DNA from: Bryobacteraceae bacterium
GTDB lineage: Bacteria; Acidobacteriota; Terriglobia; Bryobacterales; Bryobacteraceae
Assembly: GCA_049516835.1 (NCBI GenBank)
Contig: JBEKSR010000003.1
Span: forward strand, 8,302-72,301
DNA length: 64,000 nt
Direction: 5' to 3'
Positions 3,119 to 8,089 of the stretch are shown here, one piece after another. Made by a program: the position numbers and the translations under genes. Each line of letters begins with the position of its first letter. The first letter of the stretch is position 1. A model generated the notes under the pieces. It did not search any database and had not been told where the DNA came from. It saw only the letters and a list, made by a program, of their open reading frames with translations.

Positions 3119-3339
3119 TCCTTGAGTATAGAGGCAGACACCCCGGGGCCTCTGGCCCCATAGGCGTTAAGTTGAGTTAAGGGGTTGGTGGACCGATTCC
3201 TGGGGGCCGTAGCGGCTGTCGGCCCTTCTAAACCCTACGGGGTCAGGTGAGATTGATCGGTTGACCGTTTGGCCCGTCACATGTCAGCCATGGGCGTTCT
3301 TCGGCCAAGTGTTTTGTCCCACCAATGGAGCCGCTCCCG

Positions 3340-4044
3340 TCAATCCCAGCGTAGGCCCGCTGCTTCAAGGTGTTCTGGCCGAAACTTCAGGACACCGTCG
3401 GCAACGGCCAAAGGAAAAACCTCCGAAGTGATATCACTAAGATCGCCAACTTGAAACGGAAACGCCTCCTGAGCTCCAGGCGCCAATGCAATGCGATACT
3501 CGGATTGGTAAGAAAAGCTCGCCGGCTTTCGGAATCGCCCGACTTCTCCGGAATAGTTCGATTCATCGTAGTACTCAACGAGGCGGCCCTCGACCTTCAG
3601 TCCTCGGTGCTTTGCTGCGGCGGCTACTCTCGAAAGAAACTCCTGCGTATGAGTGAAGAGAACGAAAGACTCGCCAGGCCACTTATGGCATCTTGGAAAG
3701 ATTGGGCCCTCGACTGGCCTCGTTATCGCGAACATGCAGAAGAGATTGCAGAAAGAAGTTTGCTGGCGAGCAATTTTGATTGGACCGGCAAGGTCCCCAG
3801 GCGCGGCCCGGATCTGATCCAGGCCACGGATTCCCGGGTCGAAAACGAGATTGCAGTGCTCTGGCTGAAGGATGTAATCTGTGCCTTCACGTTTGTCGCT
3901 TCGGGCTGGGTCCCCCTCCAGCGACTTGAAAAAAGCCAGAGGGCTCATGTATAGGAGACCTTTCTGGACCATTTCCAGATGGGCCCTACGGCCGAGCTTG
4001 AGCAAGATCACACAGGGCTCGCCCGTTTTAGTCCAGAGGGCCAC
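3340..4044 (-). CDS. Hypothetical protein (orphan, gene D of the AT-richer island)
   Basis: 234-aa ORF with GTG start preceded by AGGA. AT-richer than the flanks. No motif I can name. Its start lies 34 nt from the left end of the IS1-type element. Confidence 0.5.
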   Translation of the reverse strand: MALWTKTGEPCVILLKLGRRAHLEMVQKGLLYMSPLAFFKSLEGDPARSDKREGTDYILQPEHCNLVFDPGIRGLDQIRAAPGDLAGPIKIARQQTSFCNLFCMFAITRPVEGPIFPRCHKWPGESFVLFTHTQEFLSRVAAAAKHRGLKVEGRLVEYYDESNYSGEVGRFRKPASFSYQSEYRIALAPGAQEAFPFQVGDLSDITSEVFPLAVADGVLKFRPEHLEAAGLRWD

Positions 4045-4198
4045 ACTTAATTATCCTCTGCCACACGCCCTGCCGTGGGTGGTGCGCTAAATCTGTGTCC
4101 CTAGCAGTTCTTGCGCCCCCGTTTCGTCAGCCCAATGGTGCGCCAAATGCACGGGGATTGGCCGAAGACGCACGAAGCGAATCGGTCCAAGTAGAAAA

Positions 4199-4777
4199 TC
4201 AGGGATCGTCGGGAGCCCTGGTCGGCAGAAGCATAGATGGATCGAAAACCATTTCACATTGAGGGCACGATAACTCGGCTAAGACCCACCGACTGAGCCA
4301 TCGCAGAAACTGCGCATCGAGCGCTCTCCGGCCCGCGACGTGAAGCGTTGCGATCTTGGGAACACTCCGAATCAGATCTATATCGACCGTCGTCAGTTGA
4401 TTAAGAAAAGCGATACTGTCTTCCAGCTTGGCTCCGTGGCGCGGAAGAAAAAAAAGATGAGCGATACGGTGACGCTTAGCGTCACCCTGCTTTTCTCTAC
4501 TGAGCGTCGATAACGGCCGTACGGGACATACTACAACTCGATTCTGGGCACGTTCAGGATGAGATATCTCGCAGTCGGGGGTGACCACTAGAGATCGCAC
4601 GCTTTGGCACGCCACGGACACCGGTACCTCTTCGTCCTTTGGCAATGCGATCATAGTCTCTACAGTAAGTCCGTGGTTCTGGTTACCGCGCACGTTGATG
4701 TAGACGTGCGGCGCAAACTCCAATAAATCGCCCTGGCTCAGTTGAGCCGCAGGTTCGCAGTAAAAGCTTCCAAGCAA
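4199..4777 (-). CDS. Hypothetical protein (cargo gene C)
   Basis: 192-aa ORF with TTG start 10 nt after the gene B stop. The order of 'QGDLLEF', 'SLVVTPDCEI', 'VVVCPVRPLS' and 'DSIAFLNQLTTVDIDLI' loosely recalls a MazF/PemK-type SH3-like barrel (weak, by eye). C-terminal 'CPQC'. Confidence 0.5.
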   Translation of the reverse strand: MLGSFYCEPAAQLSQGDLLEFAPHVYINVRGNQNHGLTVETMIALPKDEEVPVSVACQSVRSLVVTPDCEISHPERAQNRVVVCPVRPLSTLSREKQGDAKRHRIAHLFFLPRHGAKLEDSIAFLNQLTTVDIDLIRSVPKIATLHVAGRRALDAQFLRWLSRWVLAELSCPQCEMVFDPSMLLPTRAPDDP

Positions 4778-4787
4778 GAATTACCTT

Positions 4788-5168
4788 TTAGAAGAAACAA
4801 CTATCATCTGGCTCGACTTCTTGCTCGGCTTCGGACGGAGGCCTGAAGTAAGCGTCAAAGGCCAGCGACAAACTTTCTCCGGATCGCGCACGCGCGAAGT
4901 CTATCCCAGGTTTGGCGACGCTTTCGGGGGGCCTCGCAGGACTGCGAGGCGGTTTTGGCGCGCGATGGACTACCAAAATCACATCAGACGTGTGATTACT
5001 GAAGGGCAGAATAACAGTTCCTACTGGTGCAATAGCAAAACCGATTATCAACACCGCGGCCGAAAATGGAGATGGTCCTTTTGCGTGTTGGCGAGGGTTC
5101 GTTTGCCGTTCGGTCAGATCCTCTTCCAAAGAGAATACGTCCACTATATCCCACTGCTCATTTTTCAT
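4788..5168 (-). CDS. Hypothetical single-pass membrane protein (cargo gene B)
   Basis: 126 aa. Its ATG overlaps the gene A stop (ATGA). One hydrophobic helix 'FSAAVLIIGFAIAPVGTVILPF', with acidic N- and C-terminal tails. Confidence 0.5.
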   Translation of the reverse strand: MKNEQWDIVDVFSLEEDLTERQTNPRQHAKGPSPFSAAVLIIGFAIAPVGTVILPFSNHTSDVILVVHRAPKPPRSPARPPESVAKPGIDFARARSGESLSLAFDAYFRPPSEAEQEVEPDDSCFF

Positions 5169-5842
5169 GATTGTCTGACCTCTTCTGCGAAATGATGCAA
5201 CCGCTCTGCGTGCGGCTTACACTGCTCTAGAAATTCAAGCATCAGAGCAGTTGGCAGCGCAATCCGTATGATAGGCTCCAGGTATACGTCCGCTCTCCTG
5301 CCTATACGAACGAAGTGGATATCGGGCGGGGCTATGTAATAGAAGTCCATAATGGAGTCATCGCCGATTGCGGCCATGAAAACGTTGTTCGCACGAAAGC
5401 CCTGCACCTTTTCTGTGTCTTGAGGTTCTGGAATCGGTGCCAACCGTTTGGTGCTAAAGTCGTTTTGTAGGCTCTCGTGAAACGCCCTAGAGCTATTCCA
5501 AAGCCCTCGAACAAAAAGTGTTTCTGGATACGATATTTCGACCTTCGTACGAAGTGCCGCGTTGCCGGGTGCCAGCCGACCAAAGACGAGACCAATTCCC
5601 GCTCTCGCCTCAACCACTCTGCAATAGTCGGCAAAGTACCGGCGATCAGGAACCTCCGCACGCTCATAGTCAACACCGAGTTCGATGAATGTTCCTCTTC
5701 CATCTTCAATGAAGCGGAGGCGAACAGGTCCCTTCGATTGGGCGACAGCGCCGCGTCCGGGGGCTACGAATTTTCGTTCGCTAACAGCGTTCATGATTCC
5801 TTCAGATAGAATGCCGACACAAATCCATTTTGAGTATAGCAT
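5165..5842 (-). CDS. Hypothetical protein (cargo gene A)
   Basis: 225-aa ORF from ATG 5842. Alternative ATG 5794 is preceded by GAAGGA. No recognisable motif. About 50% GC in a spot count. Confidence 0.5.
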   Translation of the reverse strand: MLYSKWICVGILSEGIMNAVSERKFVAPGRGAVAQSKGPVRLRFIEDGRGTFIELGVDYERAEVPDRRYFADYCRVVEARAGIGLVFGRLAPGNAALRTKVEISYPETLFVRGLWNSSRAFHESLQNDFSTKRLAPIPEPQDTEKVQGFRANNVFMAAIGDDSIMDFYYIAPPDIHFVRIGRRADVYLEPIIRIALPTALMLEFLEQCKPHAERLHHFAEEVRQS

Positions 5843-5886
5843 ATTTTTCCGCCAGTCATCTACAAGGGAAACTGGTTTAGTATCAA

Positions 5887-6180
5887 TTAGTTAAAGCCTG
5901 CTGGGCGCTCAGGCCTCCTGATCACGCGGTCTCCGGCAGTTCCCGTGGTCCACATGGCCTTCGTGATGCCGACGGCCATCGCGGGCGTCATGCGCAGAGT
6001 CTGGTGGCGGCGGATGGAGTTGTACCAGGCAAAATGAACGCAGTATGCAGCCCACAGGTTGTCCCACTTCTTGCTAAAGGCGCTCATCAGCCGCGTCATG
6101 CGGCCCATCTGCATCCTGATCGTGAGGTTCTGGCGCTCCACATGGGACGTGCAAATCTTCGCGGGATCGGAGATCGCCAC
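5887..6180 (-). pseudogene. IS1-family transposase, C-terminal fragment only
   Basis: 'TSHVERQNLTIRMQMGRMTRLMSAFSKKW...YN..R.H.TL..TPAMA' parallels the InsB C-terminus '[28 protein letters not shown]'. The N-terminal zinc-finger/HTH region and the region that would carry the two catalytic Asp are absent. The ORF begins 3 nt inside the right inverted repeat. Confidence 0.75.
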
Positions 6181-6440
6181 CAGGATAGGGACACATATTT
6201 AGCGCACTACCCTGCCGTGCGGCTCCGGAAATCGCCAGGTGCAGGCGGAGCCCTCTATTCCGCATCTGGTCAGCCGCGATCATCGGCTGTGAGTGCAACA
6301 CCAGAATGCAATTAGTCGGAGGGCCACAGAAGCCATGTGGACGAGAAGTCGCCATCCCGGAGGCTGACCCCGACGTTATCGTTCAACCGCTTTTCTATGC
6401 CTGCCCCCCCAGTCTTCCATTGGCTCTGGAAGCGGCCTTT

Positions 6441-6935
6441 TTAGCCGCCCTGCTGCGGGTGCTTTTTCATCAGCGAATCGAGAAGCGCTTCCGGGATTCT
6501 AAAAGTTGTCCGCCGAAGACGGTTGACCGTCTGAGCAAGGTTAACCAGGCCGCGCTGGGCGGCAAGATCGAGAACCCCCAGCGTGCCAGTCACACGGAGT
6601 CCCTTGCCGCGAGCTACAATTGCGCCCTTCCGATCGTCCATGAGCGGCAGATCGGCGTCGAGCGAAATGGCCAGGGCGATTGCGGCTGCCTCCCCGTTAT
6701 CGAGTTCTTCCACGGAAGCCTGGTCGAATTGACGGCTTGGCGTTTCGTGGACGTCAAGCCAATCCGGAGGATCGGCAATCCAGTTCCGCACCAAAGACGG
6801 AACGTCCGGGTCGGTCAACTCGGCTCGCACGGCGGATGGCAGGATCACTTTCTCAAATAGAACTGGAAGGAGGTCGACGTTTTCGATCAGTACCAGATGG
6901 TCGATCGGCCCGGTATCGGCGATGATGAGCCGCAC
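6441..6935 (-). CDS. DUF3368-type PIN-like toxin
   Basis: 164 aa, 'LIIADTGPIDHLVLIENVDLLPVLF'. It sits directly downstream of a UPF0175 partner, the classic pairing. Confidence 0.7.
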   Translation of the reverse strand: MRLIIADTGPIDHLVLIENVDLLPVLFEKVILPSAVRAELTDPDVPSLVRNWIADPPDWLDVHETPSRQFDQASVEELDNGEAAAIALAISLDADLPLMDDRKGAIVARGKGLRVTGTLGVLDLAAQRGLVNLAQTVNRLRRTTFRIPEALLDSLMKKHPQQGG

Positions 6936-6938
6936 CGG

Positions 6939-7202
6939 TTAGAATCCCAATTGTTTCAGAGCGTCACGATCCCGCTCAAAATCTTCCATGGTGTAGTCTT
7001 CATACACGTCATGGGATTTTAGGAACCCATCGAGCCGGTACCTGGTTCCAAAACCGAGCAGCCGCCGCAGCTCAGGCTTGGTGATGCGACCGCTCTTGAA
7101 TTCTTCGAGCGCCAGGGCTTCGAGGGCGCGGCGCGAGAGGTCGACGCCGGATGCGCTCATGCGACTGGCCAGCTCATCGGGAATCCGGACGGTCAGTTCC
7201 AT
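6939..7202 (-). CDS. UPF0175 family antitoxin
   Basis: 87 aa. 'ALALEEFKSGRITKPELRRLLGF' is typical of UPF0175. There is a 3-nt gap to the DUF3368 gene. Confidence 0.7.
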   Translation of the reverse strand: MELTVRIPDELASRMSASGVDLSRRALEALALEEFKSGRITKPELRRLLGFGTRYRLDGFLKSHDVYEDYTMEDFERDRDALKQLGF

Positions 7203-7306
7203 GCTCTTTCACCCTACTCCATCCGCATAACTCGATCAAGGAAATAGCCGGACATAAGCGGTCATTTATGTTTGACAGTCCAGGCCTGTCCCCGGATTTC
7301 GCAGTT

Positions 7307-8089
7307 CTAGAACCGTTTCAGCGCGCGCAGCAGGGAGGCGGTGGTGCCGCCGGAATGCAGCTCCACCGAGTGAACGGGTTTCCAATTCTCGTCCATGGTC
7401 CCAATGTAGAGGGCGGCCTGGCGGCTGCCGCCCATCAGGATGACGGTGTACTTGCGGTCCGGGTAGCCGAGGGCGCGGCACTGGAGTTCGCCCGACTCGC
7501 TCTGCCAGCGGTCGGAGGCGGGCCGGCCCAGTTTCTGCACCGCGGCGAGGTAGTCGTCGCGGCTGGTCAGGGTGAGGTACTGCTGGTCCTTAGTGGTGAA
7601 GACCACGCTCTGCCTGACCTCGCCCACTTGGGTCAGGCGGAGGGCCGCCAGGCAGAGGAGAACGGCCACGGGCAGCGCGGCGGCGATCAGCTTGAAGATG
7701 CGGCGGTCGTTGGATTCCAGCCGGATGCCCACCACGGGCGCGGGCGCGCCGCGGTCCGGAACGGCCCCGGATGCCGGAGGAGAGCCGCCCACCGCAACGG
7801 GCATCTGGATCACGCGCCGCTGGTACGGCCACACCGTGCCGCCCTTGTATTCCAGCTCCCGGTTCAAGCCGACTATGAGGACCGGGTCGTCGATGCGCGA
7901 CACTTCACCGACGAGCCGCCGCGAGATCCAGATCTCCGCACCGCTCTTGCAATTGACCACCAGGATCTCCGACCAGGTGGCCTTCCGGAAGAGCCACTCG
8001 TTGTGCTCGATGTTGAGGATGGGGGGATAGAACGAGAATGGCCGGGAGGTCAAGTGGTTGAGCGACGGCGGAATGGGCGGGGAGGCCAT
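7307..8089 (-). CDS. Hypothetical membrane-anchored protein
   Basis: The ORF runs to 8188 but overlaps the upstream gene, so ATG 8089 ('MASPPIPPSLNHL') was chosen. One central TM helix 'IFKLIAAALPVAVLLCLAAL'. Confidence 0.5.
   Translation of the reverse strand: MASPPIPPSLNHLTSRPFSFYPPILNIEHNEWLFRKATWSEILVVNCKSGAEIWISRRLVGEVSRIDDPVLIVGLNRELEYKGGTVWPYQRRVIQMPVAVGGSPPASGAVPDRGAPAPVVGIRLESNDRRIFKLIAAALPVAVLLCLAALRLTQVGEVRQSVVFTTKDQQYLTLTSRDDYLAAVQKLGRPASDRWQSESGELQCRALGYPDRKYTVILMGGSRQAALYIGTMDENWKPVHSVELHSGGTTASLLRALKRF

What the first reader, a model, noticed from the sequence alone, without database searches (positions are those of the whole stretch)
4070..6219. IS1-type ends and a perfect 8-bp target duplication bracket a 2.1-kb element with only a transposase stump and a body of three unknown genes
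Seen directly in the sequence:
- Positions 4078-4105 (GGTGGTGCGCTAAATCTGTGTCCCTAGC) and the reverse complement of 6184-6211 (GGTAGTGCGCTAAATATGTGTCCCTATC) match 25/28.
- Both begin GGnnnTG.
- They are immediately flanked by identical CTGCCGTG at 4070-4077 and 6212-6219.

As I recall the ISfinder description, GGnnnTG ends and 8-9 bp duplications are the IS1-family signature.

The only transposase-like sequence inside is a 97-codon ORF (5887-6180). It corresponds to the C-terminal 'IER.NL..R...RL.R...FSK' part of InsB and starts 3 nt from the right inverted repeat. The zinc-finger/HTH region and the first two catalytic acidic residues are missing.

The rest of the element is a co-oriented three-gene operon. 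This looks like a non-autonomous, passenger-carrying IS1 derivative that could be moved in trans by an intact copy. The passengers may be expressed from the IR-proximal promoter (inference).
Basis: partly seen in the sequence, partly recalled or inferred. Interest (0 to 1): 0.8.

Follow-up and report, generated by a model that had tools for sequence, protein, structure and literature searches.

The report
Transposase-less IS1 cassette with cargo
This 2.1-kb stretch is a decayed copy of an IS1-family jumping gene common in Bryobacterales soil bacteria: it has lost its transposase but keeps both ends, its insertion scar and a conserved three-gene cargo, which makes it a known kind of element from a lineage I could not find described.

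Summary
In detail: there are 25/28-nt inverted ends at 4078-4105 and 6184-6211, flanked by a perfect 8-bp duplication, CTGCCGTG.

The ends are real transposon termini. The same 25-nt end (GGTAGTGCGCTAAATCTGTGTCCCT) occurs in 37 loci of Bryobacterales/Terriglobia genomes and in more than 118 metagenome contigs. Many pairs carry their own 8-bp duplications and span 0.3-4.1 kb. At least 19 loci hold a full 312-348-aa transposase that scores as IS1 family. Those full elements also carry varied cargo.

The window copy keeps about 42 nt of the left end joined directly to the last ~82 codons of the transposase gene. That remnant is also frameshifted near its 3' end. A three-gene cargo follows, then the right end.

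The cargo A-B-C is conserved elsewhere and under purifying selection (dN/dS about 0.1). It sits next to the same right end in a second, diverged element. C models weakly as a MazF-like fold.

I found no intact partner in the window, no second insertion site and no empty site. Mobilisation by a transposase supplied in trans is therefore plausible but not shown.

Verdict: this is a cassette-like (MIC-type) derivative of a cargo-carrying IS1 element, a new member of a known kind and of modest interest.

The parts
4070..4077 (.). Target-site duplication, copy next to the right end (CTGCCGTG)
   Evidence: Identical 8-mer directly outside both ends. 8-bp duplications flank at least 12 other pairs of these ends.
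4078..4105 (+). Right end (IRR, downstream of the cargo): GGTGGTGCGCTAAATCTGTGTCCCT plus 3 nt. The family-conserved part is 4078-4102.
   Evidence: Matches the family consensus at 24/25 positions. It lacks the left-end subterminal motif.
4106..4198 (-). 93-nt spacer between the stop of gene C and the right end
   Evidence: The equivalent spacer in L196 is 23 nt.
4199..4777 (-). Cargo gene C (192 aa): conserved protein with a possible MazF/Kid/CcdB-like fold and a C-terminal CPxC motif
   Evidence: 10 close relatives and 185 representative relatives, with invariant RIAHLFFLPR, DCEI and CPQCE motifs. The model has pLDDT 65 and hits MazF chains in Foldseek (prob 1.0, E about 2e-4, TM to target 0.6-0.7). 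No Pfam or PDB sequence match.
4788..5168 (-). Cargo gene B (126 aa): small protein with one hydrophobic, probably membrane-spanning segment. Its start overlaps the stop of A (ATGA).
   Evidence: Conserved at 57-64% identity between A and C in L196-L202. dN/dS 0.13. The membrane segment is read from the sequence (FSAAVLIIGFAIAPVGTVILPF).
5165..5794 (-). Cargo gene A (209 aa from Met17 of the 225-codon ORF that starts at 5842): function unknown, beta-rich with two strand-strand-strand-strand-helix repeats
   Evidence: 34 relatives of about 209 aa. An NCBI copy is called as 209 aa in a Bryobacteraceae MAG. dN/dS 0.09. The model is confident (pLDDT 87), with only weak PUR-alpha-like hits.
5795..5921 (-). 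Region between the transposase remnant and gene A. It contains a TATACT-containing stretch shared with the L200 copy and may be the cargo's own promoter (inference).
   Evidence: Alignment of the regions upstream of A. No consensus sigma-70 site was found.
5922..6168 (-). Transposase remnant: the last ~82 codons (DPAKICTSHVERQNL...W), including the third catalytic residue region. There is a frameshift near 5943, and the canonical stop is TGA at 5924-5922.
   Evidence: 81% nt identity to the L189 remnant over window 6179-5921. 53-82% aa identity to IS1-family transposases. On its own it gives only weak Pfam/NCBIfam IS1 hits.
5887..6180 (-). The 97-codon ORF as listed: a fortuitous reading frame spanning left-end DNA, the transposase remnant and out-of-frame read-through. 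Not a functional transposase.
6170..6211 (-). Left end (IRL) with its subterminal region: GGTAGTGCGCTAAATATGTGTCCCTATCCTGGTGGCGATCTC
   Evidence: 24/25 match to the family consensus. Same layout as the left ends of L124/L161 through position 42 (37 of 42 identical), with no recognisable similarity beyond it.
6212..6219 (.). Target-site duplication, copy next to the left end (CTGCCGTG)

Best explanation
Window 4078-6211 is an internally deleted, transposase-less derivative of a cargo-carrying IS1-family element. That lineage is widespread in Bryobacterales (Acidobacteriota).

**The intact form.** Full elements of the lineage are built as: left end (25-nt inverted repeat plus a subterminal stretch, about 42 nt in all), a left module of about 1.3 kb (often a P63C-domain gene), a single-ORF zinc-finger DDE transposase of about 312 aa, 0.3-2.1 kb of variable right-hand cargo, then the right end. 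They insert with an 8-bp target duplication.

**The window copy.** A deletion has joined position ~42 of the left end to codon ~229 of the transposase gene. This removed the left module, the zinc-finger/HTH region and the first two catalytic aspartates. The remaining ~82 codons have also acquired a frameshift.

**What survives.**
- Both near-consensus ends (24/25 each).
- The 8-bp duplication made when the element, or its intact ancestor, inserted between a PIN-like toxin gene and a 234-aa ORF.
- The right-hand cargo, a translationally coupled operon A-B-C maintained by purifying selection.

**Shown:** the anatomy, the family relationship, the conservation of the cargo and its association with this type of right end.

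**Inferred:**
- The element could still be moved if a cognate transposase were supplied in trans, as with MIC elements.
- The cargo uses its own promoter.
- C is a MazF-type toxin-fold protein, which would make A-B-C an addiction- or defence-like module.
For: **Ends and duplication**
- The ends and the 8-bp duplication are real and not due to chance.
- The same 24-nt pattern is found in 37 GTDB loci, almost all Bryobacterales, Bryobacteraceae or Terriglobia, and in more than 118 metagenome contigs.
- At least 12 independent pairs have perfect 8-bp duplications at different sites, with lengths from 405 to 4027 bp.

**Transposase**
- Full-length transposase homology lies next to these ends in at least 19 loci.
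- It scores as IS1 family: Pfam 26.0 bits against a 24.1 cut-off, and NCBIfam transpos_IS1 at 95.6 bits, E = 4e-27.
- The window's stump aligns to the C-terminal 75-82 residues of these proteins.
- DNA homology stops exactly at the canonical stop codon.

**Junction and derivatives**
- The stump-side end carries the left-end-specific subterminal motif up to position 42, and transposase homology starts at 6168.
- Other derivatives join the end to other points of the transposase 3' region.

**Cargo**
- A-B-C recurs in L196-L203.
- In L196 the layout is transposase remnant, A, B, C, then a window-type right end, with GAAGCGCG on both sides.
- dN/dS is 0.09 for A and 0.13 for B.
- C has a MazF-like fold hit.

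**Co-residence.** A cargo-only derivative (L035) and a transposase-bearing element (L045) lie in the same MAG.
Against: - There is no intact transposase and no third end in the 64-kb window. The rest of the source genome could not be searched.
- The element is seen at a single site only, on every one of more than 40 contigs carrying it or its flanks. The 8 site copies aligned in full (L001-L007, L010) are 100% identical to the window.
- No empty site was found.
- The stump is closer (68-82% aa) to transposases whose elements have a different end sequence (GGTAGTGYCTGAA..GTGCGTTG). It is only 53-65% identical to those found between window-type ends. The parent lineage was therefore not sampled, or the element is chimeric.
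- No transposase-less derivative was seen at two different sites. Mobilisation of truncated forms is unproven even at family level.
- The MazF assignment rests on a model of only moderate confidence and has no significant sequence support.
Confidence: 0.85

Rival explanations
1. The element is a fossil that decayed where it sits. A complete element (left module, transposase, A-B-C) inserted here and made the duplication, then lost its left part by an ordinary deletion. It has never moved in its present form and cannot move in this genome because no cognate transposase is present. This is a sub-case of the main explanation and differs only on mobility.
For: - Single site, fixed in the population, no second copy.
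- No intact partner in the window.
- The remnant has a further frameshift.
- In L196 the same kind of element has decayed further and lost its left end entirely, so decay in place does happen in this lineage.
Against: - Both ends are retained at 24/25 to consensus, together with the whole 42-nt left subterminal region. A random deletion would not be expected to spare this.
- Another IS1-family element is polymorphic 640 bp away in the same population, so IS1-type transposases are active there.
- The rest of the genome was not examined.
Confidence: 0.45
2. The 28-nt sequence is a dispersed REP-like or regulatory repeat unconnected to transposition. Its inverted arrangement around these genes, and the flanking 8-mers, are coincidental.
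For: The sequence is indeed dispersed: 37 genome loci and more than 118 metagenome loci, most showing a single copy per locus.
Against: - At least 12 pairs have perfect 8-bp duplications.
- At least 19 loci have a full IS1-family transposase within 0.3-2.4 kb of the repeat, in a fixed orientation.
- The outermost bases are GGTAGTG, as in relatives with other end types.
- Many single-copy loci are short contigs or are cut by the locus edge.
Confidence: 0.01
3. Two independent IS remnants (solo ends) happen to bracket resident chromosomal genes A-C. On this reading it is a composite or accidental structure rather than one element.
For: - The stump resembles transposases of a different end type more than those found with window-type ends.
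- A-B-C also occurs without recognisable ends in L200-L203.
Against: - The perfect 8-bp direct repeat immediately outside both ends is the mark of a single insertion event.
- The same collinear order (transposase remnant, A, B, C, right end) recurs in L196 at about 64% nt identity at an unrelated site.
- The stump-side end has left-end features and the far end has right-end features, as expected for one element.
Confidence: 0.04
4. The element belongs to the IS6/IS26 family, which shares GGnnnTG ends and 8-bp duplications, rather than to IS1.
For: The GGnnnTG terminal pattern and 8-bp duplications are common to both families (PMC6807381).
Against: The full-length transposase between these ends scores 95.6 bits for IS1 (NF033558) against 16.9 bits for IS6 (NF033587). 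It also has the IS1/IS1595-type N-terminal zinc finger. The stump's only Pfam hits are DDE_Tnp_IS1 and rve_3, both below their cut-offs.
Confidence: 0.02

Closest known systems
Mobile insertion cassettes (MICs), prototype MIC231 of Bacillus cereus, mobilised in trans by the IS231A transposase (described in PMC3913671 and PMC3129680)
   Same: Bracketed by the inverted ends of a known IS family. No functional transposase. Carries passenger gene(s). Flanked by a target-site duplication.
   Different: - The parent family here is IS1, not IS4/IS231.
- A transposase remnant is still present.
- The cargo is a three-gene operon already carried by the transposase-bearing ancestor, not something that replaced the transposase.
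- Trans-mobilisation has not been demonstrated.
tIS ('transporter IS'): IS copies that carry passenger genes, recognised by ISfinder in several families (PMC7986276, PMC3129680). From memory only, the IS1 family includes an ISMhu11 subgroup listed at 0.9-4.6 kb.
   Same: The intact relatives found here (L058, L092, L098, L135, L140, L165) are exactly this: an IS1-family transposase plus unrelated genes between one pair of ends, 2.6-4.1 kb long.
   Different: The window copy has lost its transposase, so it is a derivative of a tIS rather than a tIS. Whether this Bryobacterales lineage falls in the ISMhu11 subgroup could not be tested because no ISfinder data were available.
IS1 of Escherichia coli (InsA / InsAB')
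   Same: GGnnnTG ends, an 8-9-bp duplication, a zinc-finger + HTH + DDE transposase, and the conserved C-terminal ER.NL..R...RL.R...FSK region.
   Different: - Classical IS1 is 768 bp, makes its transposase by a frameshift between two ORFs, and has no cargo.
- The transposases between window-type ends are single ORFs. The L012 relative, which has the other end type, does have two overlapping frames.
- The relationship is distant: NCBIfam score just under the family cut-off.
MITEs (miniature inverted-repeat transposable elements)
   Same: Non-autonomous deletion derivatives that keep the ends. The same family includes 334-565-bp members (L044, L070, L099, L114).
   Different: The window element is 2.1 kb and carries coding genes. 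No amplification to multiple copies was seen.

Membership tests
IS1 family (ISfinder sense) | Terminal inverted repeats beginning GGnnnTG | tested here: met
   GGTGGTG and GGTAGTG at the two tips. The family consensus is GGTAGTGCGCTAAATCTGTGTCCCT. This feature is shared with IS6/IS26 (PMC6807381).
IS1 family (ISfinder sense) | Target-site duplication of 8-9 bp | tested here: met
   CTGCCGTG on both sides. At least 12 further pairs have perfect 8-bp duplications.
IS1 family (ISfinder sense) | Encodes a transposase homologous to InsAB' (zinc finger, HTH, DDE), tested on the window element itself | tested here: inconclusive
   Only the last ~82 codons remain. On their own they score Pfam DDE_Tnp_IS1 17.7 bits (cut-off 24.1) and NCBIfam 14.5 bits. 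The zinc finger and both aspartates are absent.
IS1 family (ISfinder sense) | Same feature, tested on full-length relatives bounded by the same ends | tested here: met
   The L135 transposase scores Pfam DDE_Tnp_IS1 26.0 (cut-off 24.1), NCBIfam transpos_IS1 95.6 bits at E = 4e-27 (cut-off 100, so just under), and the IS1/IS1595 zinc domain 25.8 (cut-off 28). IS6 scores 16.9 and IS1595 20.3.
Mobile insertion cassette (MIC) | Bracketed by inverted repeats of an IS family, with a target duplication | tested here: met
Mobile insertion cassette (MIC) | No transposase gene inside | tested here: met
   Only a truncated, frameshifted remnant is present. A, B and C have no transposase-like hits.
Mobile insertion cassette (MIC) | Carries passenger gene(s) unrelated to transposition | tested here: met
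   A-B-C are conserved and under purifying selection.
Mobile insertion cassette (MIC) | Mobilised in trans by the cognate transposase | not testable with these tools
   No second copy and no empty site. No partner in the window. There is only indirect support: a cargo-only derivative and a transposase-bearing element in one related MAG.
tIS (IS with passenger genes) | Functional transposase plus passenger genes between one pair of ends | tested here: not met
   Not met for the window element, which has no functional transposase. Met by relatives L058, L092, L098, L135 and L140.
IS6/IS26 family | Transposase of the IS6 type | tested here: not met
   NF033587 scores 16.9 bits against a cut-off of 125.
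MazF/PemK-CcdB toxin superfamily (for cargo protein C) | SH3-like barrel fold of MazF/Kid/CcdB | tested here: inconclusive
   Foldseek gives prob 1.0, E about 2e-4 and TM to target 0.58-0.70 against many MazF/Kid chains. The model itself has pLDDT 64.7 and pTM 0.60.
MazF/PemK-CcdB toxin superfamily (for cargo protein C) | Sequence match to PemK_toxin (PF02452) or to solved MazF proteins | tested here: not met
   - In the E<=1 scan of the ten closest members, 1 matched PemK_toxin, at E = 0.026; in the 64-member scan at E<=0.01, none did.
- The family profile has no PDB hit.
- hhalign probability is below 1%.
REP / dispersed non-mobile repeat | Occurs independently of transposase genes and without target duplications | tested here: not met
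   Associated with IS1-family transposases in at least 19 loci and with 8-bp duplications in at least 12 pairs.

The most novel reading that the evidence does not exclude
A-B-C is a three-gene addiction- or defence-like module built around a MazF-fold toxin (C), a small membrane protein (B) and a protein with no confident structural match (A). On this reading it has travelled for a long time as the dedicated right-end passenger of one IS1 lineage, since it is found next to the same type of right end in two elements that have diverged to about 64% nt identity. Selection on the module would be what keeps transposase-less copies such as this one intact. That would make it a standing partnership between a toxin-type module and a very small DDE transposon in Acidobacteriota.
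Probability: 0.25. Interest if true: 0.55.

Novelty: new member of a known kind. Interest (0 to 1): 0.3.

Why it matters
**Annotation.** The result turns a 'hypothetical protein' cluster in a Bryobacteraceae genome into a defined mobile-element relic. It gives the end sequence (GGTAGTGCGCTAAATCTGTGTCCCT, 8-bp duplication) of an IS1-family lineage that I could not find described. The one survey of Acidobacteria mobile elements that I read lists no IS1 family (PMC3469429).

**The lineage.** It is abundant in Bryobacterales from peat and soil, and it routinely carries cargo on both sides of its transposase: P63C-domain genes, a retropepsin-like protease, and the A-B-C module. It therefore behaves as a small gene vehicle rather than a bare insertion sequence. 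It also leaves many cargo-only and miniature derivatives.

**Genome mining.** The end motif is a cheap handle for finding accessory and possibly toxin- or defence-type genes in poorly annotated Acidobacteriota. None of this overturns current understanding, because cargo-carrying IS (tIS) and cassette-like derivatives (MICs) are established concepts.

Tried and rejected
**Empty site.**
- The exact junction CACGCC-CTGCCGTG-CGGCTCCGGA gave 0 hits in the metagenome and genome collections.
- Exact look-ups of both flanking proteins returned only contigs that carry the element.

**Population polymorphism.** The copies are 100% identical over 3.7 kb, so they give no information on selection.

**Junction by microhomology.** I first thought the end/transposase junction lay at a shared GTCCC ('VPI' against 'VPVMG'). 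I rejected this after the left-end subterminal motif showed that homology to left ends runs to position 42.

**Apparent transposase homology beyond the end.** Two tblastn alignments extended to 6276-6297. They contain stop codons and were not reproduced with three other queries, so I treated them as artefacts.

**Function of the cargo.**
- Pfam, NCBIfam, PADLOC and PHROGs gave nothing significant for A, B or C.
- The PDB profile search for C was empty. For A it gave only chance-level Mediator hits.
- The model of A has no convincing match among PDB or viral structures.

**Other searches that found nothing.**
- Rfam and tRNA scans of the region were empty.
- The promoter scan found no site on the coding strand.
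- No transposase-less derivative was present at two different sites.
- The two ISfinder review papers are not in the held library.
Full report
**1. The observation**

- 4078-4105 reads GGTGGTGCGCTAAATCTGTGTCCCTAGC.
- The reverse complement of 6184-6211 reads GGTAGTGCGCTAAATATGTGTCCCTATC, a 25/28 match.
- Both are directly flanked by CTGCCGTG, at 4070-4077 and 6212-6219.

Allowing three mismatches, these are the only two copies in the 64-kb window, and none is expected in shuffled sequence. The repeat finder recovers the pair independently.

All four inner ORFs are on the minus strand: 5887-6180, 5165-5842, 4788-5168 and 4199-4777.

The element lies in a patch of lower G+C (about 3150-7350, 48-60% against 62-73% around it). 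That patch also holds a 234-aa ORF and a UPF0175/DUF3368 (PIN-like) toxin-antitoxin pair.

**2. The ends belong to a real and widespread transposon family**

An exact scan for GGTNGTGCGCTAAATNTGTGTCCC found 37 loci in species-representative genomes. Almost all are Bryobacterales, Bryobacteraceae or Terriglobia MAGs.

I paired ends computationally, allowing up to 5 mismatches. This gave many elements with their own perfect 8-bp duplications at unrelated sites:

| Locus | Length (bp) | Duplication |
|---|---|---|
| L070 | 405 | CATTCCTA |
| L099 | 527 | GGACGGGG |
| L164 | 937 | TGCAATCT |
| L179 | 965 | CAATGGAC |
| L101 | 1045 | CACGGCTA |
| L056 | 1064 | AGTGCGTG |
| L145 | 2346 | GTCCGGTG |
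| L058 | 2623 | GACCGAGG |
| L092 | 3332 | CTCAGGCT |
| L135 | 3545 | CACAAGGG |
| L140 | 3733 | AAAGCCGG |
| L042 | 4027 | GAGTCCCG |

Several further pairs have near-perfect duplications.

**3. The family is IS1**

Between such ends, L058, L092, L098, L135 and L140 carry an uninterrupted single-ORF transposase of 312-348 aa, starting MTCHNCRTECKRKG...CRQCSKTF. L165 carries a 288-aa one.

A survey anchored on every end found full-length transposase homology in at least 19 loci.

The L135 protein scores as follows:
- Pfam DDE_Tnp_IS1: above its gathering cut-off.
- NCBIfam transpos_IS1: 95.6 bits, E = 4e-27, just below that model's 100-bit cut-off.
- IS6: 16.9 bits.
- IS1595: 20.3 bits.

This comparison matters because GGnnnTG ends and 8-bp duplications are shared by IS1 and IS6/IS26 (PMC6807381).

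**4. Anatomy of the intact relatives**

The distance from the left end to the transposase start is fairly constant, about 1.2-1.6 kb in most loci. In about ten distinct elements this space holds a P63C-domain gene on the opposite strand. One of these also has a Cro/CI-type HTH.

Downstream of the transposase, 0.3-2.1 kb of unrelated cargo precedes the right end. One example is a retropepsin-like protease with a SEC-C motif in L092.

Full-length elements share only the roughly 1-kb transposase core, at 72-77% nt identity. These are therefore cargo-carrying IS, or tIS in ISfinder usage (PMC7986276, PMC3129680).

A sister group has a different end sequence (GGTAGTGYCTGAA..GTGCGTTG; L011-L014, L192). 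It shows the same habit:
- L013 is 2703 bp with a left-hand SDH_protease/NfeD gene.
- L012 has a 78-aa ORF between the transposase and the right end.
- L011 is a 1008-bp element with an 8-bp duplication (GCCGGTTT). It holds only an 84-aa transposase tail plus a 100-aa ORF.

**5. Anatomy of the window copy**

- Ends on the transposase-upstream side share a subterminal motif out to about 42 nt (...TGTGTCCCT[G/C]T[C/T][C/T]TGGTGGCGGCCTCG).
- The window's stump-side end has this motif and the far end does not. The stump side is therefore the left end.
- In a three-way comparison the window follows the L124/L161 left ends through position 42 (window 6211-6170).
- From 6168 (GATCCCGC...) it follows transposase DNA of L189.
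- DNA identity to L189 is 81% over window 6179-5921. It stops exactly at the canonical stop codon, TGA at 5924-5922.
- That stop is out of frame in the window, which reads TGG ACC ACG G|GAA CTG CCG GAG ACC GCG TGA. The listed ORF therefore runs on for 20 unrelated codons (my reading).
- The '97-aa protein' is thus a chance frame over left-end DNA plus about 82 transposase codons. It is truncated at the N-terminus by about 230 residues and frameshifted near the C-terminus.
- It retains the region of the third catalytic residue (HVERQNL). It lacks the zinc finger, the HTH and both aspartates.
- Many relatives in the protein database are 84-86 aa and start at the conserved Met of VPVMG. In L011, the one case I read, the upstream gene is disrupted. 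I infer that these are similar truncated calls, not a distinct short protein.
- Other derivatives in the family join an end to other points of the transposase 3' region.

**6. The cargo**

Conservation:
- A (true length about 209 aa) has 34 relatives.
- C has 10 close relatives and 185 representative relatives.
- Several A and C relatives share contigs.
- The trio recurs in L196-L199 (69/57/60% aa identity for A/B/C), in L200-L202 (74/64/53%) and more distantly in L203.
- dN/dS between the window and L200 is 0.09 for A and 0.13 for B. Synonymous sites are saturated in the other comparisons.

Operon structure:
- A and B overlap by ATGA, and B and C are 10 nt apart.
- Some gene callers miss C and call a 57-aa ORF on the opposite strand instead. 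The conservation of C shows that call is wrong.

A second element with the same cargo:
- In L196 the module is preceded by a decayed transposase tail (...RVQAINVTPAMA...NAWSMRERLA*).
- It is followed 23 nt after C by a window-type right end (GGTAGTGAGCTATTTGTGTGTCCCTA).
- GAAGCGCG lies on both sides.
- This is a second element of the same build at a different site, about 64% identical in DNA. The cargo's association with this right end is therefore old.
- L196 has no recognisable left end. It shows that such elements decay where they sit.

Function remains open:
- No library names A, B or C.
- A models confidently (pLDDT 87). It has only weak PUR-alpha-like structural echoes.
- B has one hydrophobic segment.
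- C models at pLDDT 65, and its top 50 PDB matches are almost all MazF/Kid, with a few CcdB-type entries (prob 1.0, E about 2e-4, TM to target about 0.6-0.7).
- Sequence profiles do not confirm the MazF match.
- From my own reading, three C motifs sit in the same order as MazF/PemK signatures: QGD(I/L), R.L(V/I)L.PDCE and DS(I/V)A.LNQLTTVD.

**7. Mobility**

For:
- Both ends are 24/25 to consensus and the whole left subterminal region is kept.
- Intact relatives exist.
- In MAG CAVYZD01 a 908-bp cargo-only derivative (L035, one 188-aa ORF) sits in the same genome as a transposase-bearing element (L045).
- In some strains of the source population another IS1-family element interrupts the PIN-like gene at about 6855, only 640 bp away. 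IS1-type transposition is therefore recent there. That element's end (GGTAGTGGTTCAGTTTGATTT) differs from the window's.

Against:
- There is no partner and no third end in the window.
- The element sits at one site on every contig examined, and the 8 copies aligned in full are 100% identical to the window.
- There is no empty site in public data.
- No truncated family member was seen at two sites.

The duplication proves insertion by transposition. It does not tell whether the element was already truncated when it inserted.

**8. Expression**

No sigma-70-type site was found on the coding strand, although the scan is crude for Acidobacteriota. The window and L200 share a TATACT-containing stretch about 50 nt upstream of the start of A, and L196 has TAGAAT there. 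This weakly suggests that the cargo has its own promoter.

**9. An unexplained point**

The stump is 68-82% identical to transposases from elements with the other end type or with no recognisable ends (L011-L014, L189, L192). It is only 53-65% identical to those found between window-type ends. Either the parent sub-lineage with window-type ends was not sampled, or the element is a recombinant. Neither affects the main conclusion.

**10. Verdict**

The element is a non-autonomous, cassette-like (MIC-type) deletion derivative of a cargo-carrying IS1-family element. It comes from a Bryobacterales lineage that I could not find described in the literature available to me; the one Acidobacteria mobile-element survey I read lists no IS1 family (PMC3469429). 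The concepts involved (tIS, MIC, MITE) are established, so this is a new member of a known kind and of modest interest. The most interesting open thread is the conserved A-B-C cargo and its possible MazF-type toxin.

Noticed in passing
window ~6855 (inside the DUF3368/PIN-like gene 6441-6935); L008:1-220, L031:1-162: In some population variants the sequence upstream of about 6855 is replaced. What replaces it is the C-terminal end of another IS1-family transposase (...FSKKIENH...DHIWSVEEIVGLLEQ...*), followed directly by a third type of IS1 end (reverse complement GGTAGTGGTTCAGTTTGATTT). Contigs stop inside it, as expected for a multicopy repeat. This is a polymorphic IS insertion only 640 bp from the studied element.
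   Followed up: partly
window 3150-7350: This is a patch of low G+C (48-60% against 62-73% in the flanks). It contains the element, a 234-aa ORF (3340-4044, which hits the unknown-function phage family phrog_26561 at E = 3e-13) and a UPF0175 / DUF3368 toxin-antitoxin pair (6441-7202). It looks like a small accessory island. There is no tRNA within 12 kb.
   Followed up: partly
L058:305-1405, L092:3388-4833, L098:2368-3396, and also L128, L139, L150, L180, L077, L124: In about ten distinct full-length elements, the space between the left end and the transposase holds a P63C-domain gene (PF10546) on the opposite strand, always ending about 63 nt from the tip. One also has a Cro/CI-type HTH. It may be a recurrent accessory gene of this IS1 lineage rather than random cargo.
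   Followed up: partly
L196:4725-6545: A second element with the order transposase remnant, A, B, C, right end has GAAGCGCG(G) on both sides but no recognisable left end. The transposase-like sequence starts right after the left repeat. I cannot tell whether this reflects a deletion that ended exactly at the tip, use of a surrogate end, or chance.
   Followed up: partly
window 5922-6168 compared with L011-L014, L189, L192 and with L058/L092/L098/L135/L140: The stump is closer (68-82% aa) to transposases of elements with a different end sequence. It is only 53-65% identical to the transposases actually found between window-type ends. This mismatch between end type and transposase lineage is unexplained.
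   Followed up: partly
window 4340-4513 (+) against 4199-4777 (-): Some public gene calls (JGI) annotate a 57-aa ORF on the plus strand and miss gene C. Conservation across 185 representative proteins shows that the minus-strand 192-aa gene is the real one.
   Followed up: yes
window 5165-5794 (protein A): A has a confident predicted structure (pLDDT 87, pTM 0.82) made of two strand-strand-strand-strand-helix repeats. It has no convincing match among PDB or viral structures, only faint PUR-alpha-like hits. It may be a fold not represented in those two libraries.
   Followed up: partly
L041:2796-2872: Two window-type ends face each other only 25 nt apart, forming a 77-bp 'element' with no target duplication. 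A third end lies 2.2 kb away. This may be a minimal end-to-end remnant or a junction of two elements.
   Followed up: no
L189:4380-4620: Upstream of the closest relative of the stump there are four or more tandem-like copies of a motif of about 60 nt containing GGAACGAACCCAATTTGG. I do not know what it is.
   Followed up: no
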